From the IMG/VR virus record IMGVR_UViG_2648501143_000006: a DNA stretch of 20,639 nt. One strand, given 5' to 3'. This DNA is from a virus. Taxonomy: Duplodnaviria; Heunggongvirae; Uroviricota; Caudoviricetes. Below are positions 9,001-12,000 of this stretch, piece after piece. Made by a program: the position numbers. The stretch's first letter is position 1, and each line of letters starts with the position of its first letter.

Positions 9001-12000
9001 TGGTGAGTTTTCGAGAAGCCATTTGCAGAATAATCGATGTCCTTGCAGTGCATATTCACCACGGAATCCGGGGTCGTACACCGCATGGCATTCAACAACG
9101 CTATGCCAGAAGTTACGCACTTCATGAACGCCAGCCAGCACTAATCCTTCGTAGATGCCGAGATATACCGCATCAGGCTTGATGTAGTACGTGTGCCCCG
9201 GCTCAACAATATTTTCGGTATTGCCTGGCTCGTTAAGAAAGGCCTGTAATCGCACAGGGTTATCAATAAATTTTAGTTCCATGCGATGTCATCCATTTTC
9301 ACATACAGCCTGCCAGCGCCTTATCTATTAACCCTCGTGCAATTTCATGCAGAGTTGGCGCTACTCCAATTCCTGATTTTTTACGCTGCTCTTCCTGAAT
9401 TTTCTTTATCGCTTCCATTTGCTTCTCACTTATCAATACCGGCTTTACTGAAATAGCCATAACGCCCCCTTAGAACTGTATAAAACAACAGTTATTATAG
9501 TTTCACAAATCGCAATATTCATCATCGTAATTGCAAAATATGAAACAAATAGCACAAAAAAATGCCACCGCTCAGTAGCTGGTGGCATCGTTCTGTGTGT
9601 CAGGTTTTGACAGGTTTTTTATGGACTCTAAAAACTATATTTATGGTGTCGCATTACTCTTCACGGCAGGCGCTTTTCAGTTCTGCCCTTGCTTCTTGCT
9701 CCATTGGTAATTTGATTCGCGATCATCTATGCGGATGGTTTGCTGAACAGGCATAACAACATCTCAGAGGCTATTTTTTGAACTACGAAAATTTCGTAGT
9801 GCTCACCTTCAAAAACGTCACGCCCCTTGTACACTGGATTTTACAAAAGTCTCGTAAAACTCTTTGCTGTTCTGGGCTATGTGCCAAACCGCAGCGAATA
9901 CCTCCGTCTGCCAGATGAGCAAAACATACCTTATAAAGAAAATCGCTGTTTTTGCTGTACCACCTGTACCACCATGTCACAAACCCTTGTGTGGCGAGGC
10001 CTGCAGGTGGTACAGGTGGGTAAAAATGACCTCTCCCCACCTGTACAGACCTGTACCATTTATTTAATTTTTACCCATAGCAGCACATAATCCCTTTTTT
10101 GAAATATTGAAAAATGCGTTCATTCTTCCCGCTGGCTTAACCTTGTAGCCGCTTGCCACCATCGCCGCAATAAATGCTCCGTTGGGGATATAGTGCGGGT
10201 GATCACTGTGCTGGTGGTTTATCTGGTTATATCGCTCCACTTCATGCTTCAACATGTCAGATGTGGGGTTATCCTGCGGGAAGCTCTCAATCTGGGCATT
10301 ACTCATCCCGTTGTCTCTGATCCATCTCAGGCAGCTTTTCGCCGATACGATAAATGACGGGTTATCAAGCGGGTTTTCCCAGTCCGCATTCCGGTTGTGG
10401 AGCGCCAGTCCGTCAAGGTTAAATTGTGGGTATTCAGCGGTAATTACTGTCACTGCGTGGCGGATTTCAGTCTCGTCACAACATGGCTTATCTCCCACAC
10501 CAGCAGGGTAATAATCTGAACCACCGGGACTGATACAGCTTTTACCACTGAAAGGCCATTGCTTCGCCATTTCGGGTGTTGAGTGATTACCGTCGCTCCG
10601 TTCGCGCTGTGCCTCTGTCCACTGGCTGGCATATTCAGTAAATGAAACCCTTTGCCCCTGGCGCATCCAGTGCGCAATCATAATTAAAGTGCGTTCCAGA
10701 CTTTGGATGTCGCCAGCATTCCCGCACTGTGTAGCGAAACTTTTTAATTCTTCGCGCTCCGTTCTGGTCATTCCCTGCGGTATGCAATAGTTATTGTTCA
10801 TGTTTTACCTCTCTGATTTCTGCTGCCATATCTGTTGGCTCTATACAGCCGTCCCGACTTGCCACGCAGGGAATAATGATTTCAACGGTATCGCCGTCAA
10901 TACACATTTCAACATTCGCCCATGCCGCAATGGGTAGCCAGTCTGAACGCCCCTCAAACCGTAGCTGCCAGCCAGAGGAAGAAGCTAACTGGCGCACTTT
11001 GTAAAATGGTGTGCTCATCATTGGTTGTTTCCTCTCAGCCAGCCAGAAGAAATGCGTTTGTTAATGGTATAGGTGGTACAGGTCTGGTATAGGTAAGATA
11101 TTGACCTGTACCACTATAACGCACTGTTTTTAATACTGAATTAGCAAAGTGGTATAGGTGGTACAGGTAAAAACGATCTTCTTGTAAAAAGACTATATTA
11201 AAAAACATCATATCCCCCCATACCGATCAGACGGGCAAACGCAGCCTGTAGAACTCCGACCTCTGGTAGTTCGTAGAACACGCCATTCCCTCGGTCTGGT
11301 CTTCCATGCTTCACCAGCCCCATTTGTGCAAGTGATTTACCCAGTAGTGATCTGGCTGCTGGCTCTTTAAGCTTTTCCCCACGCTCAAGCGACCACGCTA
11401 CAAATCGACTAACCATATCCTTTGCAAACAAACGGACTTCGCCATTAAACGGAGGTTCATTGATTAGCTCGCCATAAAGAAACAATTCAACGCCAGACAG
11501 CCCCAGCAAGATTTCTTCACGTAAGGCATCGGTCTGTGGCGCTCGTTGAGGGTCAAAACCTGAGAGATCCACCCCTTTAAGATGCCAAAGCAACTTTGCG
11601 GCACCGCCATCATTAAGCCAACTGTACAGCCGATCAAAATACTCCCGGCTCTGTGCTTTTTCAGGAGATGGCTCAAGCACGAGATAGCGGCGCTCTCTTA
11701 TCCCTGCCTGTAATACCTGTGTGCTGTTACTGGCAAATATCAACCGGGCAAAATTCGGCATTGGTTCAGCATCAATTCCCTTGCGCTCAAGGTTAAACGT
11801 CGGTTCGCTAATAATCGCTTTAAGTCTGTCAGCTTCAGACGGCTTGTGGATCGTCACTTCGTCAGCAAATACCAGTAGCTTGTTAGCAAGTATTGAATTG
11901 AAGCGCCCTGAAATATGTCCCGCCCCGTTAATGTGGGCGGCGTACTGCCCCAGTATTTGCAGCAGCGGTTTAACCGTTGTGCCTTTCCCTGTGCCCGGGA

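What the first reader, a model, noticed from the sequence alone, without database searches (positions are those of the whole stretch)
9299..9523. Second SOS box controlling a 53-aa gene and, apparently, the whole ejection-protein operon
CTGTATAAAACAACAG lies between a TATAAT -10 hexamer and the RBS of an unannotated 53-aa ORF. I see no terminator between that ORF and the coupled 153/225/473/701-aa genes. Virion ejection proteins are not normally LexA-regulated, so either the small protein is an SOS-triggered antirepressor (as Tum is in coliphage 186) or the large proteins serve a non-virion, damage-induced role.
Basis: partly seen in the sequence, partly recalled or inferred. Interest (0 to 1): 0.55.

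Follow-up and report, generated by a model that had tools for sequence, protein, structure and literature searches.

The report
SOS-controlled ejection-protein operon in a phage satellite
A well-formed, conserved LexA (DNA-damage) operator sits on the promoter of a small DNA-binding-protein gene and four phage DNA-ejection genes, but the element is a known kind of phage satellite (an EcCIMP1-type island), not a phage, so it resembles the LexA-controlled packaging operon of staphylococcal satellites.

Summary
CTGTATAAAACAACAG (9476-9491) lies 2 nt downstream of a perfect TATAAT and 6 nt upstream of a GGGGG Shine-Dalgarno, on the minus strand. It heads a 53-aa ORF and four tightly packed genes homologous to P22 gp14, gp7, gp20 and gp16.

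The box scores like bona fide E. coli operators and matches the polB operator core at 15 of 16 positions. Its CTGT/ACAG cores never vary among diverged relatives, while the surrounding bases do. The same promoter occurs in 499 of 5,426 complete E. coli genomes.

The window is a ~20-kb phage-inducible chromosomal island (PICI) of the EcCIMP1 type, inserted beside host dinD, whose own operator is the "first" SOS box. EcCIMP1, which is mobilised by the P22-like phage Kapi1, carries the identical promoter and box; the two papers on it held in the searched library never mention LexA.

The 53-aa protein is a predicted ribbon-helix-helix DNA binder found only in satellites. Nothing supports a Tum-like antirepressor.

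In other genera the same promoter and leader gene head swapped modules (tape measure, baseplate hub and spike, transglycosylase internal virion proteins). Most of those loci carry a box one base too short for LexA. LexA control is therefore lineage-specific. The closest analogue is SaPI operon I.

The parts
9476..9491 (-). LexA (SOS) operator core CTGT-N8-ACAG. The 20-mer is 9474-9493, AACTGTTGTTTTATACAGTT on the minus strand.
   Evidence: Pattern search. HI 4.6, second best in the window. 15 of 16 identical to the MG1655 polB operator core. Cores invariant in clade A: 0 of 8 variable against 18 of 26 non-core positions, p = 7e-4. Intact in the four intact E. coli variants fetched from the 90-95% identity band; a fifth, UPEC129, has the box cut by an IS.
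9494..9522 (-). Sigma-70-type promoter: perfect -10 TATAAT (9499..9494), 17-nt spacer, weak -35 ATGAAT (9522..9517, 3 of 6).
   Evidence: Read from sequence. TATAAT is conserved in nearly all 70 related loci. The tool's consensus scan missed it because of the weak -35. The transcription start is not mapped.
9501..9545 (-). Two ~15-bp quasi-palindromic boxes: TTTCATATTTTGCAA (9545..9531) and TTGCGATTTGTGAAA (9515..9501). They span the -35/spacer region and the region just upstream. Candidate operator for a second regulator, possibly the ribbon-helix-helix (RHH) protein itself.
   Evidence: Conserved across genera (alignment A2). No further clear copy in the window; the two 1-mismatch matches elsewhere are within the chance expectation. 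The function is inferred.
9553..9597 (-). Strong intrinsic terminator. It isolates the late-zone promoter from upstream transcription of the replication zone.
   Evidence: -25 to -26 kcal/mol, z about -7. A hairpin plus U tract is visible at the equivalent place in several relatives.
9465..9471 (-). Shine-Dalgarno AAGGGGG, 4 nt before the ATG at 9460.
   Evidence: Sequence. A purine-rich SD is conserved in relatives.
9299..9460 (-). 53-aa leader gene. Predicted ribbon-helix-helix DNA-binding protein (WP_001018524.1).
8821..9282 (-). P22 gp14-like gene (DUF2824), 153 aa.
   Evidence: PF11039, E = 1.5e-61. 84% identical to Kapi1_055.
8150..8827 (-). P22 gp7-like ejection protein, 225 aa.
   Evidence: PF25688, E = 6.6e-73. 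58% identical to Kapi1_056.
6729..8150 (-). P22 gp20-like ejection protein, 473 aa.
   Evidence: PF16928, E = 5e-57. Only the N-terminal ~200 aa resemble Kapi1_057 (34%) and the EcCIMP1 allele (44%).
4624..6729 (-). P22 gp16-class DNA transfer protein, 701 aa. Last gene of the operon; it ends against a convergent gene.
   Evidence: phrog_770 'DNA transfer protein', E = 4.5e-161. 67% identical to the phage N7 protein and ~33% to Sf6 gp16-class proteins. Unrelated to the EcCIMP1 allele. RefSeq names it 'P22-gp16 family'.

Best explanation
**What it is.** The box is a functional LexA operator overlapping the transcription-start region of the autonomous promoter of the 'late zone' of an EcCIMP1-type PICI, a satellite of P22-like phages.

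**How it works.**
- In undamaged cells LexA sits immediately downstream of the -10 and blocks transcription.
- When DNA damage activates RecA, the same signal that induces a resident P22-like helper prophage, LexA is cleaved. One mRNA is then made that encodes a small ribbon-helix-helix regulator followed by the satellite's own copies of gp14, gp7, gp20 and gp16.
- The ejection proteins are thus available while helper procapsids assemble, and can be built into particles that carry the satellite.
- The upstream terminator uncouples this operon from the AlpA-driven early and replication genes.
- The RHH protein probably feeds back on the two conserved boxes in the promoter.

**Shown by sequence or comparison:** the anatomy, operator quality, conservation, operon compaction, identity of the island, and the fold prediction.

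**Inferred:** LexA binding, SOS induction, co-transcription, incorporation of the proteins into virions, and RHH autoregulation.
For: - Operator quality and position.
- Placement 2 nt after a perfect -10 and 15 nt before the ATG. This resembles SOS genes whose boxes overlap the start site (distances of 15-21 nt in Salmonella Table 1).
- Selective conservation. Two spacer variants (TGTTTTAT and ATCGTTAT) and three different 5'-UTR tails keep CTGT...ACAG intact: 0 of 8 core against 18 of 26 non-core variable positions, p = 7e-4.
- Independent good boxes at the same spot in distant lineages: HI 4.3 in L012, L013, L063 and L065; HI 5.7 in L016.
- The strong upstream terminator makes this a separate transcription unit.
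- Gene overlaps and no credible internal terminator or promoter.
- Island identity: integrase, AlpA-position HTH, int-alpA RNA, Bro-zone genes with C4 and isrK RNAs, primase, and no capsid, terminase or lysis genes.
- Identical promoter and leader gene in EcCIMP1, which Kapi1 induces and transduces after mitomycin C.
- Precedent of LexA-regulated SaPI operon I.
- General 'dynamic late zone' of Gram-negative PICIs.
Against: - There are no binding, transcript or induction data; the start site is unmapped.
- The -35 is poor (3 of 6) and two conserved upstream boxes suggest another regulator, so LexA may not be the main switch.
- Most relatives (33 of 71 loci) carry CTGT-N8-CAGG, one base short (HI 11.5-17), and 14 have no box. 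One of the short-box loci (L033) still carries the ejection-protein cargo. LexA control is therefore dispensable for the module.
- The HI matrix was rebuilt from memory; only 2 of its 28 sites were checked against sequence.
- The conservation statistic rests on about two deep lineages and closely related sequences.
- The EcCIMP1 paper reports no effect of the island on Kapi1 titre and only very low transduction. It gives no evidence that the satellite ejection proteins enter virions.
Confidence: 0.62

Rival explanations
1. LexA is a minor or redundant layer. The operon would be switched mainly by a dedicated regulator acting on the two conserved 15-bp boxes: the RHH leader protein itself, AlpA, or a helper factor. 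The box in the E. coli lineage would then only trim basal expression.
For: - The promoter architecture (boxes, TATAAT, leader gene) is conserved in about 70 loci, whereas a valid LexA box is present in only 24.
- The -35 is weak.
- The boxes are unique to this promoter in the window.
- The leader protein is a predicted RHH DNA binder, a class that commonly autoregulates.
Against: - Within clade A the LexA cores are strictly kept while neighbouring bases drift.
- Good boxes arose or persisted in at least 3 separate branches.
- An operator abutting the -10 with HI 4.6 would be expected to repress strongly whatever else acts on the promoter.
Confidence: 0.2
2. One reading: the 53-aa protein is an SOS-triggered antirepressor (Tum-like) that induces the island or its helper.
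For: A small gene sits directly behind a LexA operator, as with tum of coliphage 186 and the LexA-controlled antirepressors of Gifsy prophages (my own knowledge; not tested here).
Against: - No match to any Pfam, NCBIfam or PHROG family, antirepressor families included.
- The predicted fold is a DNA-binding RHH.
- No similarity to Kapi1 Arc or Mnt.
- The gene is retained behind LexA-less promoters in most relatives.
- EcCIMP1 excision and alpA induction need the helper and are not triggered by mitomycin C alone; the island does not change Kapi1 titre or CI-lux.
Confidence: 0.06
3. One reading: the ejection-protein homologues have a non-virion, damage-induced role. One example would be acting in the envelope of the carrying cell to block DNA entry of superinfecting P22-like phages, or to interfere with the helper.
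For: - EcCIMP1 adds to superinfection immunity against Kapi1, and PADLOC and DefenseFinder found no known defence system in it.
- None of the large cargo proteins of relatives hit PADLOC.
- gp20 and gp16 are exactly the proteins through which SieA-type exclusion acts.
Against: - The module keeps gp14, the assembly factor-like gene, at 84% identity to the helper copy, which suggests assembly into helper particles.
- The immunity phenotype is seen without DNA damage and only in lysogens.
- Relatives carry tape-measure or hub-and-spike modules, which are hard to picture working outside a virion.
Confidence: 0.1
4. Chance or relic: the palindrome is a fortuitous AT-rich sequence in a 5' UTR with no LexA function.
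For: - AT-rich 5' UTRs generate CTGT/ACAG-like words.
- Most relatives have a near-miss sequence that is probably not bound by LexA.
- 2 of 100 shuffles gave two matches in the window.
Against: - HI 4.6 is in the range of strong operators.
- The placement is exact.
- The cores are invariant against a variable background.
- The box is retained in the E. coli variants examined, and the promoter stretch occurs in 499 genomes.
Confidence: 0.05

Closest known systems
SaPI operon I (Staphylococcus aureus pathogenicity islands; Ubeda et al. 2007, as cited in PMC3152322)
   Same: A phage satellite whose helper-exploiting 'late' operon has its own LexA-repressed promoter. Damage that induces the helper prophage therefore also switches on the satellite's morphogenesis genes, independently of the helper's late activator.
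   Different: - Gram-positive LexA motif and unrelated genes.
- Operon I encodes small terminase and capsid-size factors; here the cargo is DNA-ejection proteins plus an RHH leader.
- LexA control here is present in only some lineages.
EcCIMP1, the E. coli MP1 PICI mobilised by phage Kapi1 (Pick, Stadel and Raivio 2025, PMC11773190)
   Same: - Same island family and gene order.
- Identical 53-aa protein and identical promoter and box.
- gp14- and gp7-like proteins are 98% identical.
   Different: - The window's island sits between yicC and dinD, not at tRNA-Thr. It has a different integrase, primase type, gp20 C-terminus and gp16.
- The paper does not mention LexA. It treats these genes only as possible packaging candidates.
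Gram-negative PICI four-zone plan with a dynamic late zone (Tommasini, Mageeney and Williams 2023, PMC10111431)
   Same: The same zones are present: integration zone (int, AlpA); Bro zone with immunity RNAs (AntA/B, Ash, C4 and isrK hits); replication zone (primase); and a late zone of captured helper late genes.
   Different: That work has no occurrence of the terms LexA, ejection or tape measure. It does not describe LexA control or the restriction of the captured genes to DNA-delivery parts seen in this subfamily.
E. coli chromosomal LexA operators, especially polB (dinA) and yebG
   Same: The core 16-mer differs from the polB operator at a single base. The box lies close to the start codon, as in yebG, umuD and sulA.
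   Different: This one sits in a mobile element and drives virion-protein homologues rather than repair genes.
tum of coliphage 186 and LexA-controlled prophage antirepressors
   Same: A small gene sits directly behind a LexA operator in a mobile element (my own knowledge).
   Different: No sequence or fold resemblance was detected. The protein is a predicted RHH DNA binder, and the gene heads a structural-protein operon.

Membership tests
Gammaproteobacterial LexA (SOS) operator | 16-bp palindromic core CTGT-N8-ACAG with an AT-rich spacer | tested here: met
   CTGTTGTTTTATACAG at 9491..9476.
Gammaproteobacterial LexA (SOS) operator | Heterology index within the range of proven operators | tested here: met
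   HI 4.6; the recalled operators score 1.4-9.3. The matrix is from memory, with dinD and polB verified. Salmonella SOS genes have HI of about 1.5-13.
Gammaproteobacterial LexA (SOS) operator | Overlaps the promoter or transcription start of the regulated gene | tested here: inconclusive
   The box starts 2 nt after a perfect -10. The start site has not been mapped experimentally.
Gammaproteobacterial LexA (SOS) operator | Conserved at orthologous promoters | tested here: inconclusive
   Strictly kept in clade A and in the intact E. coli variants examined. However, 47 of 71 related loci lack a valid box.
Gammaproteobacterial LexA (SOS) operator | Binds LexA; transcription is RecA/LexA-dependent and damage-inducible | not testable with these tools
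   Needs EMSA or ChIP, plus reporters in lexA(Ind-) and recA backgrounds.
Phage-inducible chromosomal island (Gram-negative, EcCIMP1 type) | About 20 kb with integrase and an AlpA-position regulator at one end, co-oriented | tested here: met
   Integrase at 19380-20639, HTH at 17986-18189 and int-alpA RNA at 19305-19371, all on the minus strand.
Phage-inducible chromosomal island (Gram-negative, EcCIMP1 type) | Own primase or replication module | tested here: met
   784-aa protein with zinc-ribbon, Toprim and DUF5906 domains.
Phage-inducible chromosomal island (Gram-negative, EcCIMP1 type) | No capsid, terminase, tail or lysis genes | tested here: met
   RefSeq annotation of near-identical islands and the Pfam scans show none.
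Phage-inducible chromosomal island (Gram-negative, EcCIMP1 type) | Excision and transfer depend on a helper phage | not testable with these tools
   Shown for EcCIMP1 with Kapi1 in the literature, not for this island.
SaPI operon I-type LexA-controlled packaging operon | LexA-repressed promoter on the satellite's morphogenesis operon | tested here: inconclusive
   The operator is present and well placed. Repression has not been demonstrated.
SaPI operon I-type LexA-controlled packaging operon | Operon encodes small terminase and capsid-size redirection proteins homologous to SaPI genes | tested here: not met
   The genes are an RHH leader plus gp14-, gp7-, gp20- and gp16-like genes. This is an analogue, not a member.
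Tum-type or other SOS antirepressor | Sequence or fold relationship to a known antirepressor | tested here: not met
   No Pfam, NCBIfam or PHROG hit. The fold is RHH. The Tum sequence itself was not compared.
Tum-type or other SOS antirepressor | Binds and inactivates a repressor, causing induction | not testable with these tools
   Requires expression and interaction assays.
Ribbon-helix-helix DNA-binding proteins | Beta-alpha-alpha fold | tested here: met
Ribbon-helix-helix DNA-binding proteins | Match to a curated RHH sequence family | tested here: not met
   No Pfam or NCBIfam hit. No PDB sequence hit.
P22-type ejection (E) protein module | Homologues of gp14, gp7, gp20 and gp16 in that order | tested here: met
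   PF11039, PF25688, PF16928 and phrog_770. Same order as in Kapi1.
P22-type ejection (E) protein module | Proteins are packaged in virions and ejected | not testable with these tools
   Needs particle proteomics.

The most novel reading that the evidence does not exclude
**Proposal.** A family of PICIs across the Enterobacterales reserves a dedicated transcription unit for one class of helper-derived genes: the envelope-penetration and DNA-delivery apparatus. The unit consists of a terminator, two conserved boxes, a TATAAT, a box that can or cannot bind LexA, and an RHH leader gene.

**Cargo classes seen.**
- P22-type ejection proteins.
- Transglycosylase-type internal virion proteins.
- Tape measure protein with a small companion gene.
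- Baseplate hub plus gpV spike.

**Suggested purpose.** The satellite re-equips hijacked particles with its own DNA-delivery proteins, so that it can enter cells already lysogenic for the helper. Those are the cells it needs, and they are protected by SieA-type injection blocks that act through gp20 and gp16.

**LexA control.** It would be switched on or off between lineages by changes as small as a 1-bp indel.
Probability: 0.25. Interest if true: 0.75.

Novelty: new variant of a known kind. Interest (0 to 1): 0.5.

Why it matters
- **Regulation.** In the Gram-negative PICI literature consulted here, AlpA, switched on by the helper, is the master regulator. A LexA-gated late operon would be a second, helper-independent input, known so far from staphylococcal SaPIs.
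- **Reach.** It would link antibiotic-induced SOS directly to expression of satellite virion proteins in about 9% of complete E. coli genomes.
- **A ready test.** It makes a sharp prediction in an existing experimental system, MP1/Kapi1/EcCIMP1. In a helper-free strain mitomycin C leaves alpA off, as already shown, but should switch on the 53-aa/ejection-protein operon.
- **A wider question.** The comparative pattern raises a testable question about why satellites carry their own DNA-delivery proteins. It also offers natural 1-bp variants for studying gain and loss of LexA control.

Tried and rejected
- **Whole P22-like prophage.** Rejected. No capsid, terminase or tail genes are present, and the island is bounded by dinD and yicC, or by thrW in other strains.
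- **The 53-aa gene as a normal phage gene between the needle gene and gp14.** Rejected. It has no tblastn hit in 50,697 phage genomes, and in Kapi1 gp14 abuts the needle gene.
- **Similarity of the 53-aa protein to Kapi1 Arc or Mnt.** None found.
- **Variable downstream genes of relatives as defence systems.** No PADLOC hits. Pfam and PHROGs showed virion DNA-delivery proteins instead.
- **'Cargo' as flanking helper-prophage DNA, as in helper-embedded PICIs.** Unlikely. EcCIMP1's sequenced boundaries include the genes, and the modules are isolated rather than followed by full tail operons. This was not checked locus by locus.
- **Rfam hit in the 500-bp gap upstream.** None.
- **RNA-seq supplement of the MP1 transcriptome paper.** Not held.
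- **Extra copies of the 15-bp boxes elsewhere in the island.** None above chance.
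Full report
**1. The observation**

All relevant genes are on the minus strand. Reading 5' to 3' on that strand, the region contains:

- a strong hairpin plus U-tract terminator, 9597..9553 (-25 to -26 kcal/mol, z about -7);
- two roughly 15-bp quasi-palindromic boxes, 9545..9531 and 9515..9501;
- a poor -35 (ATGAAT, 9522..9517) and a perfect TATAAT (9499..9494);
- two bases, then CTGTTGTTTTATACAG (9491..9476);
- AAGGGGG (9471..9465) and the ATG at 9460 of a 53-codon ORF.

CTGT-N8-ACAG occurs only twice in 20.6 kb, against 0.22 expected.

I scored the box with a Lewis-type heterology index (HI). 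The matrix was rebuilt from 28 E. coli operators that I recalled from the literature, so it rests on memory. Two of the 28 were checked against real sequence: dinD in this window and polB in MG1655.

- The 20-mer 9474-9493 scores 4.6.
- That is second best of 20,620 positions, behind 1.6 for the other box. The window median is 36.
- The core 16-mer differs from the polB operator at one base.

The 53-aa ORF is followed after 16 nt by a 153-aa gene. Genes of 225, 473 and 701 aa then follow with overlaps of 7, 1 and 1 nt.

Terminator-like hits inside this stretch are weak (-3.6 to -7.9 kcal/mol, interrupted U tracts). Promoter-like hits are below the chance expectation.

The observation therefore stands. 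The only correction is that RefSeq does annotate the ORF, as hypothetical protein WP_001018524.1.

**2. The genomic context**

The window is not a phage.

- Its left end is the host gene dinD. The "first SOS box" (647-666) is the classical dinD operator.
- Its right end is an integrase gene that abuts yicC.
- Between them lies a roughly 20-kb island containing:
  - an integrase;
  - an HTH regulator in the AlpA position, preceded by the int-alpA RNA motif;
  - AntA/B, DUF4222 and Ash genes, with C4 and isrK RNA matches;
  - small ORFs;
  - a zinc-ribbon/Toprim/DUF5906 primase;
  - two ORFs;
  - a 500-bp gap with iteron-like repeats;
  - the operon of interest;
  - an accessory end with ImmA/IrrE and PerC genes.
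- No capsid, terminase, tail or lysis genes are present.
- Nearly the same island sits at tRNA-Thr in other strains.

This is the four-zone Gram-negative PICI plan described by Tommasini et al. 2023, with a "dynamic late zone" of captured helper late genes.

More specifically it belongs to the EcCIMP1 family (Pick et al. 2025). What that paper reports for EcCIMP1:

- It excises only when the P22-like phage Kapi1 is present.
- It is transduced at low frequency after mitomycin C treatment.
- It uses alpA as master regulator. alpA is induced by the helper and not by mitomycin C alone.
- It adds to superinfection immunity of lysogens.

I fetched EcCIMP1 from the MP1 genome. It carries the identical 53-aa protein and the identical promoter, box and Shine-Dalgarno sequence.

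Neither that paper nor the later MP1 transcriptome paper mentions LexA. The ejection-type genes are mentioned only as possible packaging candidates.

**3. The genes**

| Window gene | Family hit | Identity to Kapi1 | Identity to EcCIMP1 allele |
|---|---|---|---|
| 153 aa | DUF2824 (P22 gp14 position) | 84% | 98% |
| 225 aa | P22_gp7 | 58% | 99% |
| 473 aa | P22 injectosome translocase (gp20) | 34%, N-terminal part only | 44%, N-terminal part only |
| 701 aa | PHROG "DNA transfer protein" (gp16 class) | not detectable | unrelated |

Identities are. The window's gp16-class protein is 67% identical to that of phage N7.

The pattern is that the assembly-side genes stay close to the helper's copies, while the conduit proteins gp20 and gp16 are swapped between islands. 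[quoted passage not shown]

The 53-aa protein:

- has no Pfam, NCBIfam or PHROG family;
- has 41 homologues, and the named ones are all from Enterobacterales;
- has no tblastn hit in 50,697 phage genomes;
- has no counterpart in Kapi1, where gp14 directly follows the needle gene;
- gives a confident AF2 model (pLDDT 86);
- shows no similarity to Kapi1 Arc or Mnt.

It is best described as a satellite-specific RHH regulator. Nothing points to a Tum-like antirepressor.

**4. Comparative evidence on the box**

I collected 16 loci from species-representative genomes and 51 from IMG/VR. With annotated E. coli loci and the window this gives 71 loci.

The promoter region is unusually well conserved across genera. 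It keeps the terminator, both boxes, the TATAAT, a CTGTAT... element, the Shine-Dalgarno sequence and the leader gene (alignment A2). The LexA box itself is not universal.

| Box state | Loci | Sequence | HI |
|---|---|---|---|
| Full box | 24 | CTGT-N8-ACAG | 4.3-8.9 |
| One base short | 33 | CTGT-N8-CAGG; the right half merges with the Shine-Dalgarno sequence | 11.5-17 |
| No box | 14 | - | - |

On an approximate NJ tree of the short leader protein, full boxes occur in at least three places:

- the Escherichia-type clade A;
- a Pantoea/Lonsdalea group with TACTGTATAAAATAACAGGA (HI 4.3);
- Pantoea coffeiphila (HI 5.7).

Within clade A there are two spacer variants (TGTTTTAT and ATCGTTAT) and three different downstream UTRs. 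All eight core positions are invariant, against 18 of 26 variable non-core positions between the -10 and the ATG (Fisher p = 7e-4). These sequences are related, so the p-value is only indicative.

The promoter and box are present in 499 of 5,426 complete E. coli genomes. Four of the five variants fetched from the 90-95% identity band keep the box. The fifth, UPEC129, has an ISEc53 insertion that cuts it.

LexA control therefore looks selected where it exists. It is a lineage-specific layer, gained or lost by changes as small as a 1-bp indel. One locus, L033, has the short form together with the ejection-protein cargo.

**5. The cargo in relatives**

Outside Escherichia the same promoter and leader gene head quite different genes:

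- transglycosylase-domain proteins of 584-888 aa plus a phrog_3003 protein;
- an 844-aa internal-virion/"head protein" type plus an 832-aa protein;
- tape measure proteins of 1,046-1,188 aa preceded by a conserved 108-aa gene;
- a baseplate hub plus a gpV-type spike with an apex motif.

None of these proteins hits PADLOC. What they share is a role in envelope penetration and DNA delivery.

Capture of helper late genes by PICIs is known. I found no description of a restriction to this functional class, or of the RHH-headed unit, in the searchable literature. The library is incomplete, so this absence is weak evidence.

**6. The most likely mechanism**

- LexA bound immediately downstream of the -10 blocks the late-zone promoter.
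- RecA-mediated LexA cleavage derepresses one mRNA encoding the RHH leader and the satellite's gp14, gp7, gp20 and gp16. The same signal induces the helper prophage.
- The proteins are therefore present while helper procapsids assemble.
- The terminator uncouples this unit from the AlpA-driven genes.
- The weak -35 and the two conserved boxes suggest a second regulator, plausibly the RHH protein acting on its own promoter.

The closest functional analogue is SaPI operon I. It is a LexA-regulated satellite operon that is not controlled by the helper's late activator. This locus is not a member of that family, because the genes are unrelated.

Every step after the sequence anatomy is inference: binding, induction, co-transcription and incorporation into virions.

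**7. Verdict**

The either/or interpretation is only partly right, because the locus is a satellite late operon.

Novelty is moderate. This would be a new, lineage-specific LexA input into a Gram-negative PICI, in a family that is already under experimental study. The wider pattern of swappable DNA-delivery modules behind one conserved regulatory unit is the more novel lead, and it is still speculative.

Noticed in passing
window 647-666: The 'first' SOS box, AACTGTATATAAATACAGTT on the minus strand, is the classical operator of the host gene dinD (window 1-615, minus strand). In this strain the island happens to be inserted between yicC and dinD. This box belongs to the chromosome, not to the island.
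   Followed up: yes
window 9950-10060: At least six copies of CCACCTGTAC(C)/GGTACAGGTGG, in both orientations. They lie in the roughly 500-bp non-coding gap between the 245-aa ORF and the terminator. They look like iterons and are candidates for the island's replication origin or packaging site.
   Followed up: partly
window 15971-16159 (minus strand): Rfam matches to C4 antisense RNA (79 bits) and isrK (65 bits) lie inside the ORF that RefSeq annotates as 'ash family protein' (15512-16540). This is the Bro-zone 'immunity RNA' arrangement. The long ORF call may be partly wrong; in EcCIMP1 the region is split into an Icd-like gene and an ash pseudogene.
   Followed up: partly
window 19305-19371 (minus strand): An int-alpA RNA motif (54 bits) lies between the integrase and the next gene, as is typical of PICI and P4-like islands.
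   Followed up: no
window 7181-7200: A third LexA-like 20-mer (TGCTGGATTTGCATACAGGG, HI 8.0) lies inside the gp20-like coding sequence and is conserved in L003. It is probably a coding coincidence, but it is within the range of weak operators.
   Followed up: no
window 9501-9515 and 9531-9545; alignment A2: Two quasi-palindromic boxes of about 15 bp (consensus TTTCATTAATTGCAAT) lie about 30 bp apart, and one abuts the -10. They are conserved from Escherichia to Pantoea and Pectobacterium. Many non-E. coli relatives also have CGATC...CGATC (Dam sites) further upstream and a GATC in the -35 region.
   Followed up: partly
L005-L009, L011, L014, L017, L018, L033-L059 (about 40 to 25 nt before the leader ATG): Most relatives carry CTGTATAAATATCAGG, a LexA-like sequence exactly one base too short, whose right half is fused to the Shine-Dalgarno sequence. 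The left half CTGTAT is kept even where LexA binding is unlikely, and I have no explanation for that conservation.
   Followed up: partly
window 4624-8150 versus L070 5481-9517: Between two otherwise near-identical islands (this window and EcCIMP1), gp14 and gp7 are 98% or more identical. gp20 shares only its N-terminal ~200 aa (44%), and the gp16-class genes are unrelated (701 aa against a 906-aa transglycosylase-domain protein). This is a recombination boundary inside gp20.
   Followed up: partly
L028, L029, L031 (6179-9747); L025, L030: Some E. coli-type islands lack gp14 and gp7 altogether. In them the leader gene is followed directly by gp20- and gp16-like genes, or by a gp20-like fragment only.
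   Followed up: no
L010, L060, L061: In this sub-family the RHH homologue has no promoter of its own. Its upstream sequence is coding, and in L010 and L061 it sits within 1-2 kb of the integrase. In L061 it is followed by transglycosylase-like, hub and spike genes, which suggests a more compact element type.
   Followed up: no
window 1352-3219 (minus strand): The accessory end carries a PerC-family regulator gene (1352-1639) and an ImmA/IrrE-type metallopeptidase gene (2731-3219) followed by a 125-aa ORF (2350-2727). The peptidase weakly matches the spr1629 repressor/antitoxin family.
   Followed up: no
L075 (E. coli UPEC129, NZ_CP071522.1 78363-78588): An ISEc53 (ISL3-like) insertion lands inside the LexA box and removes the leader gene start. 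This is a natural knockout of the promoter-proximal region.
   Followed up: no
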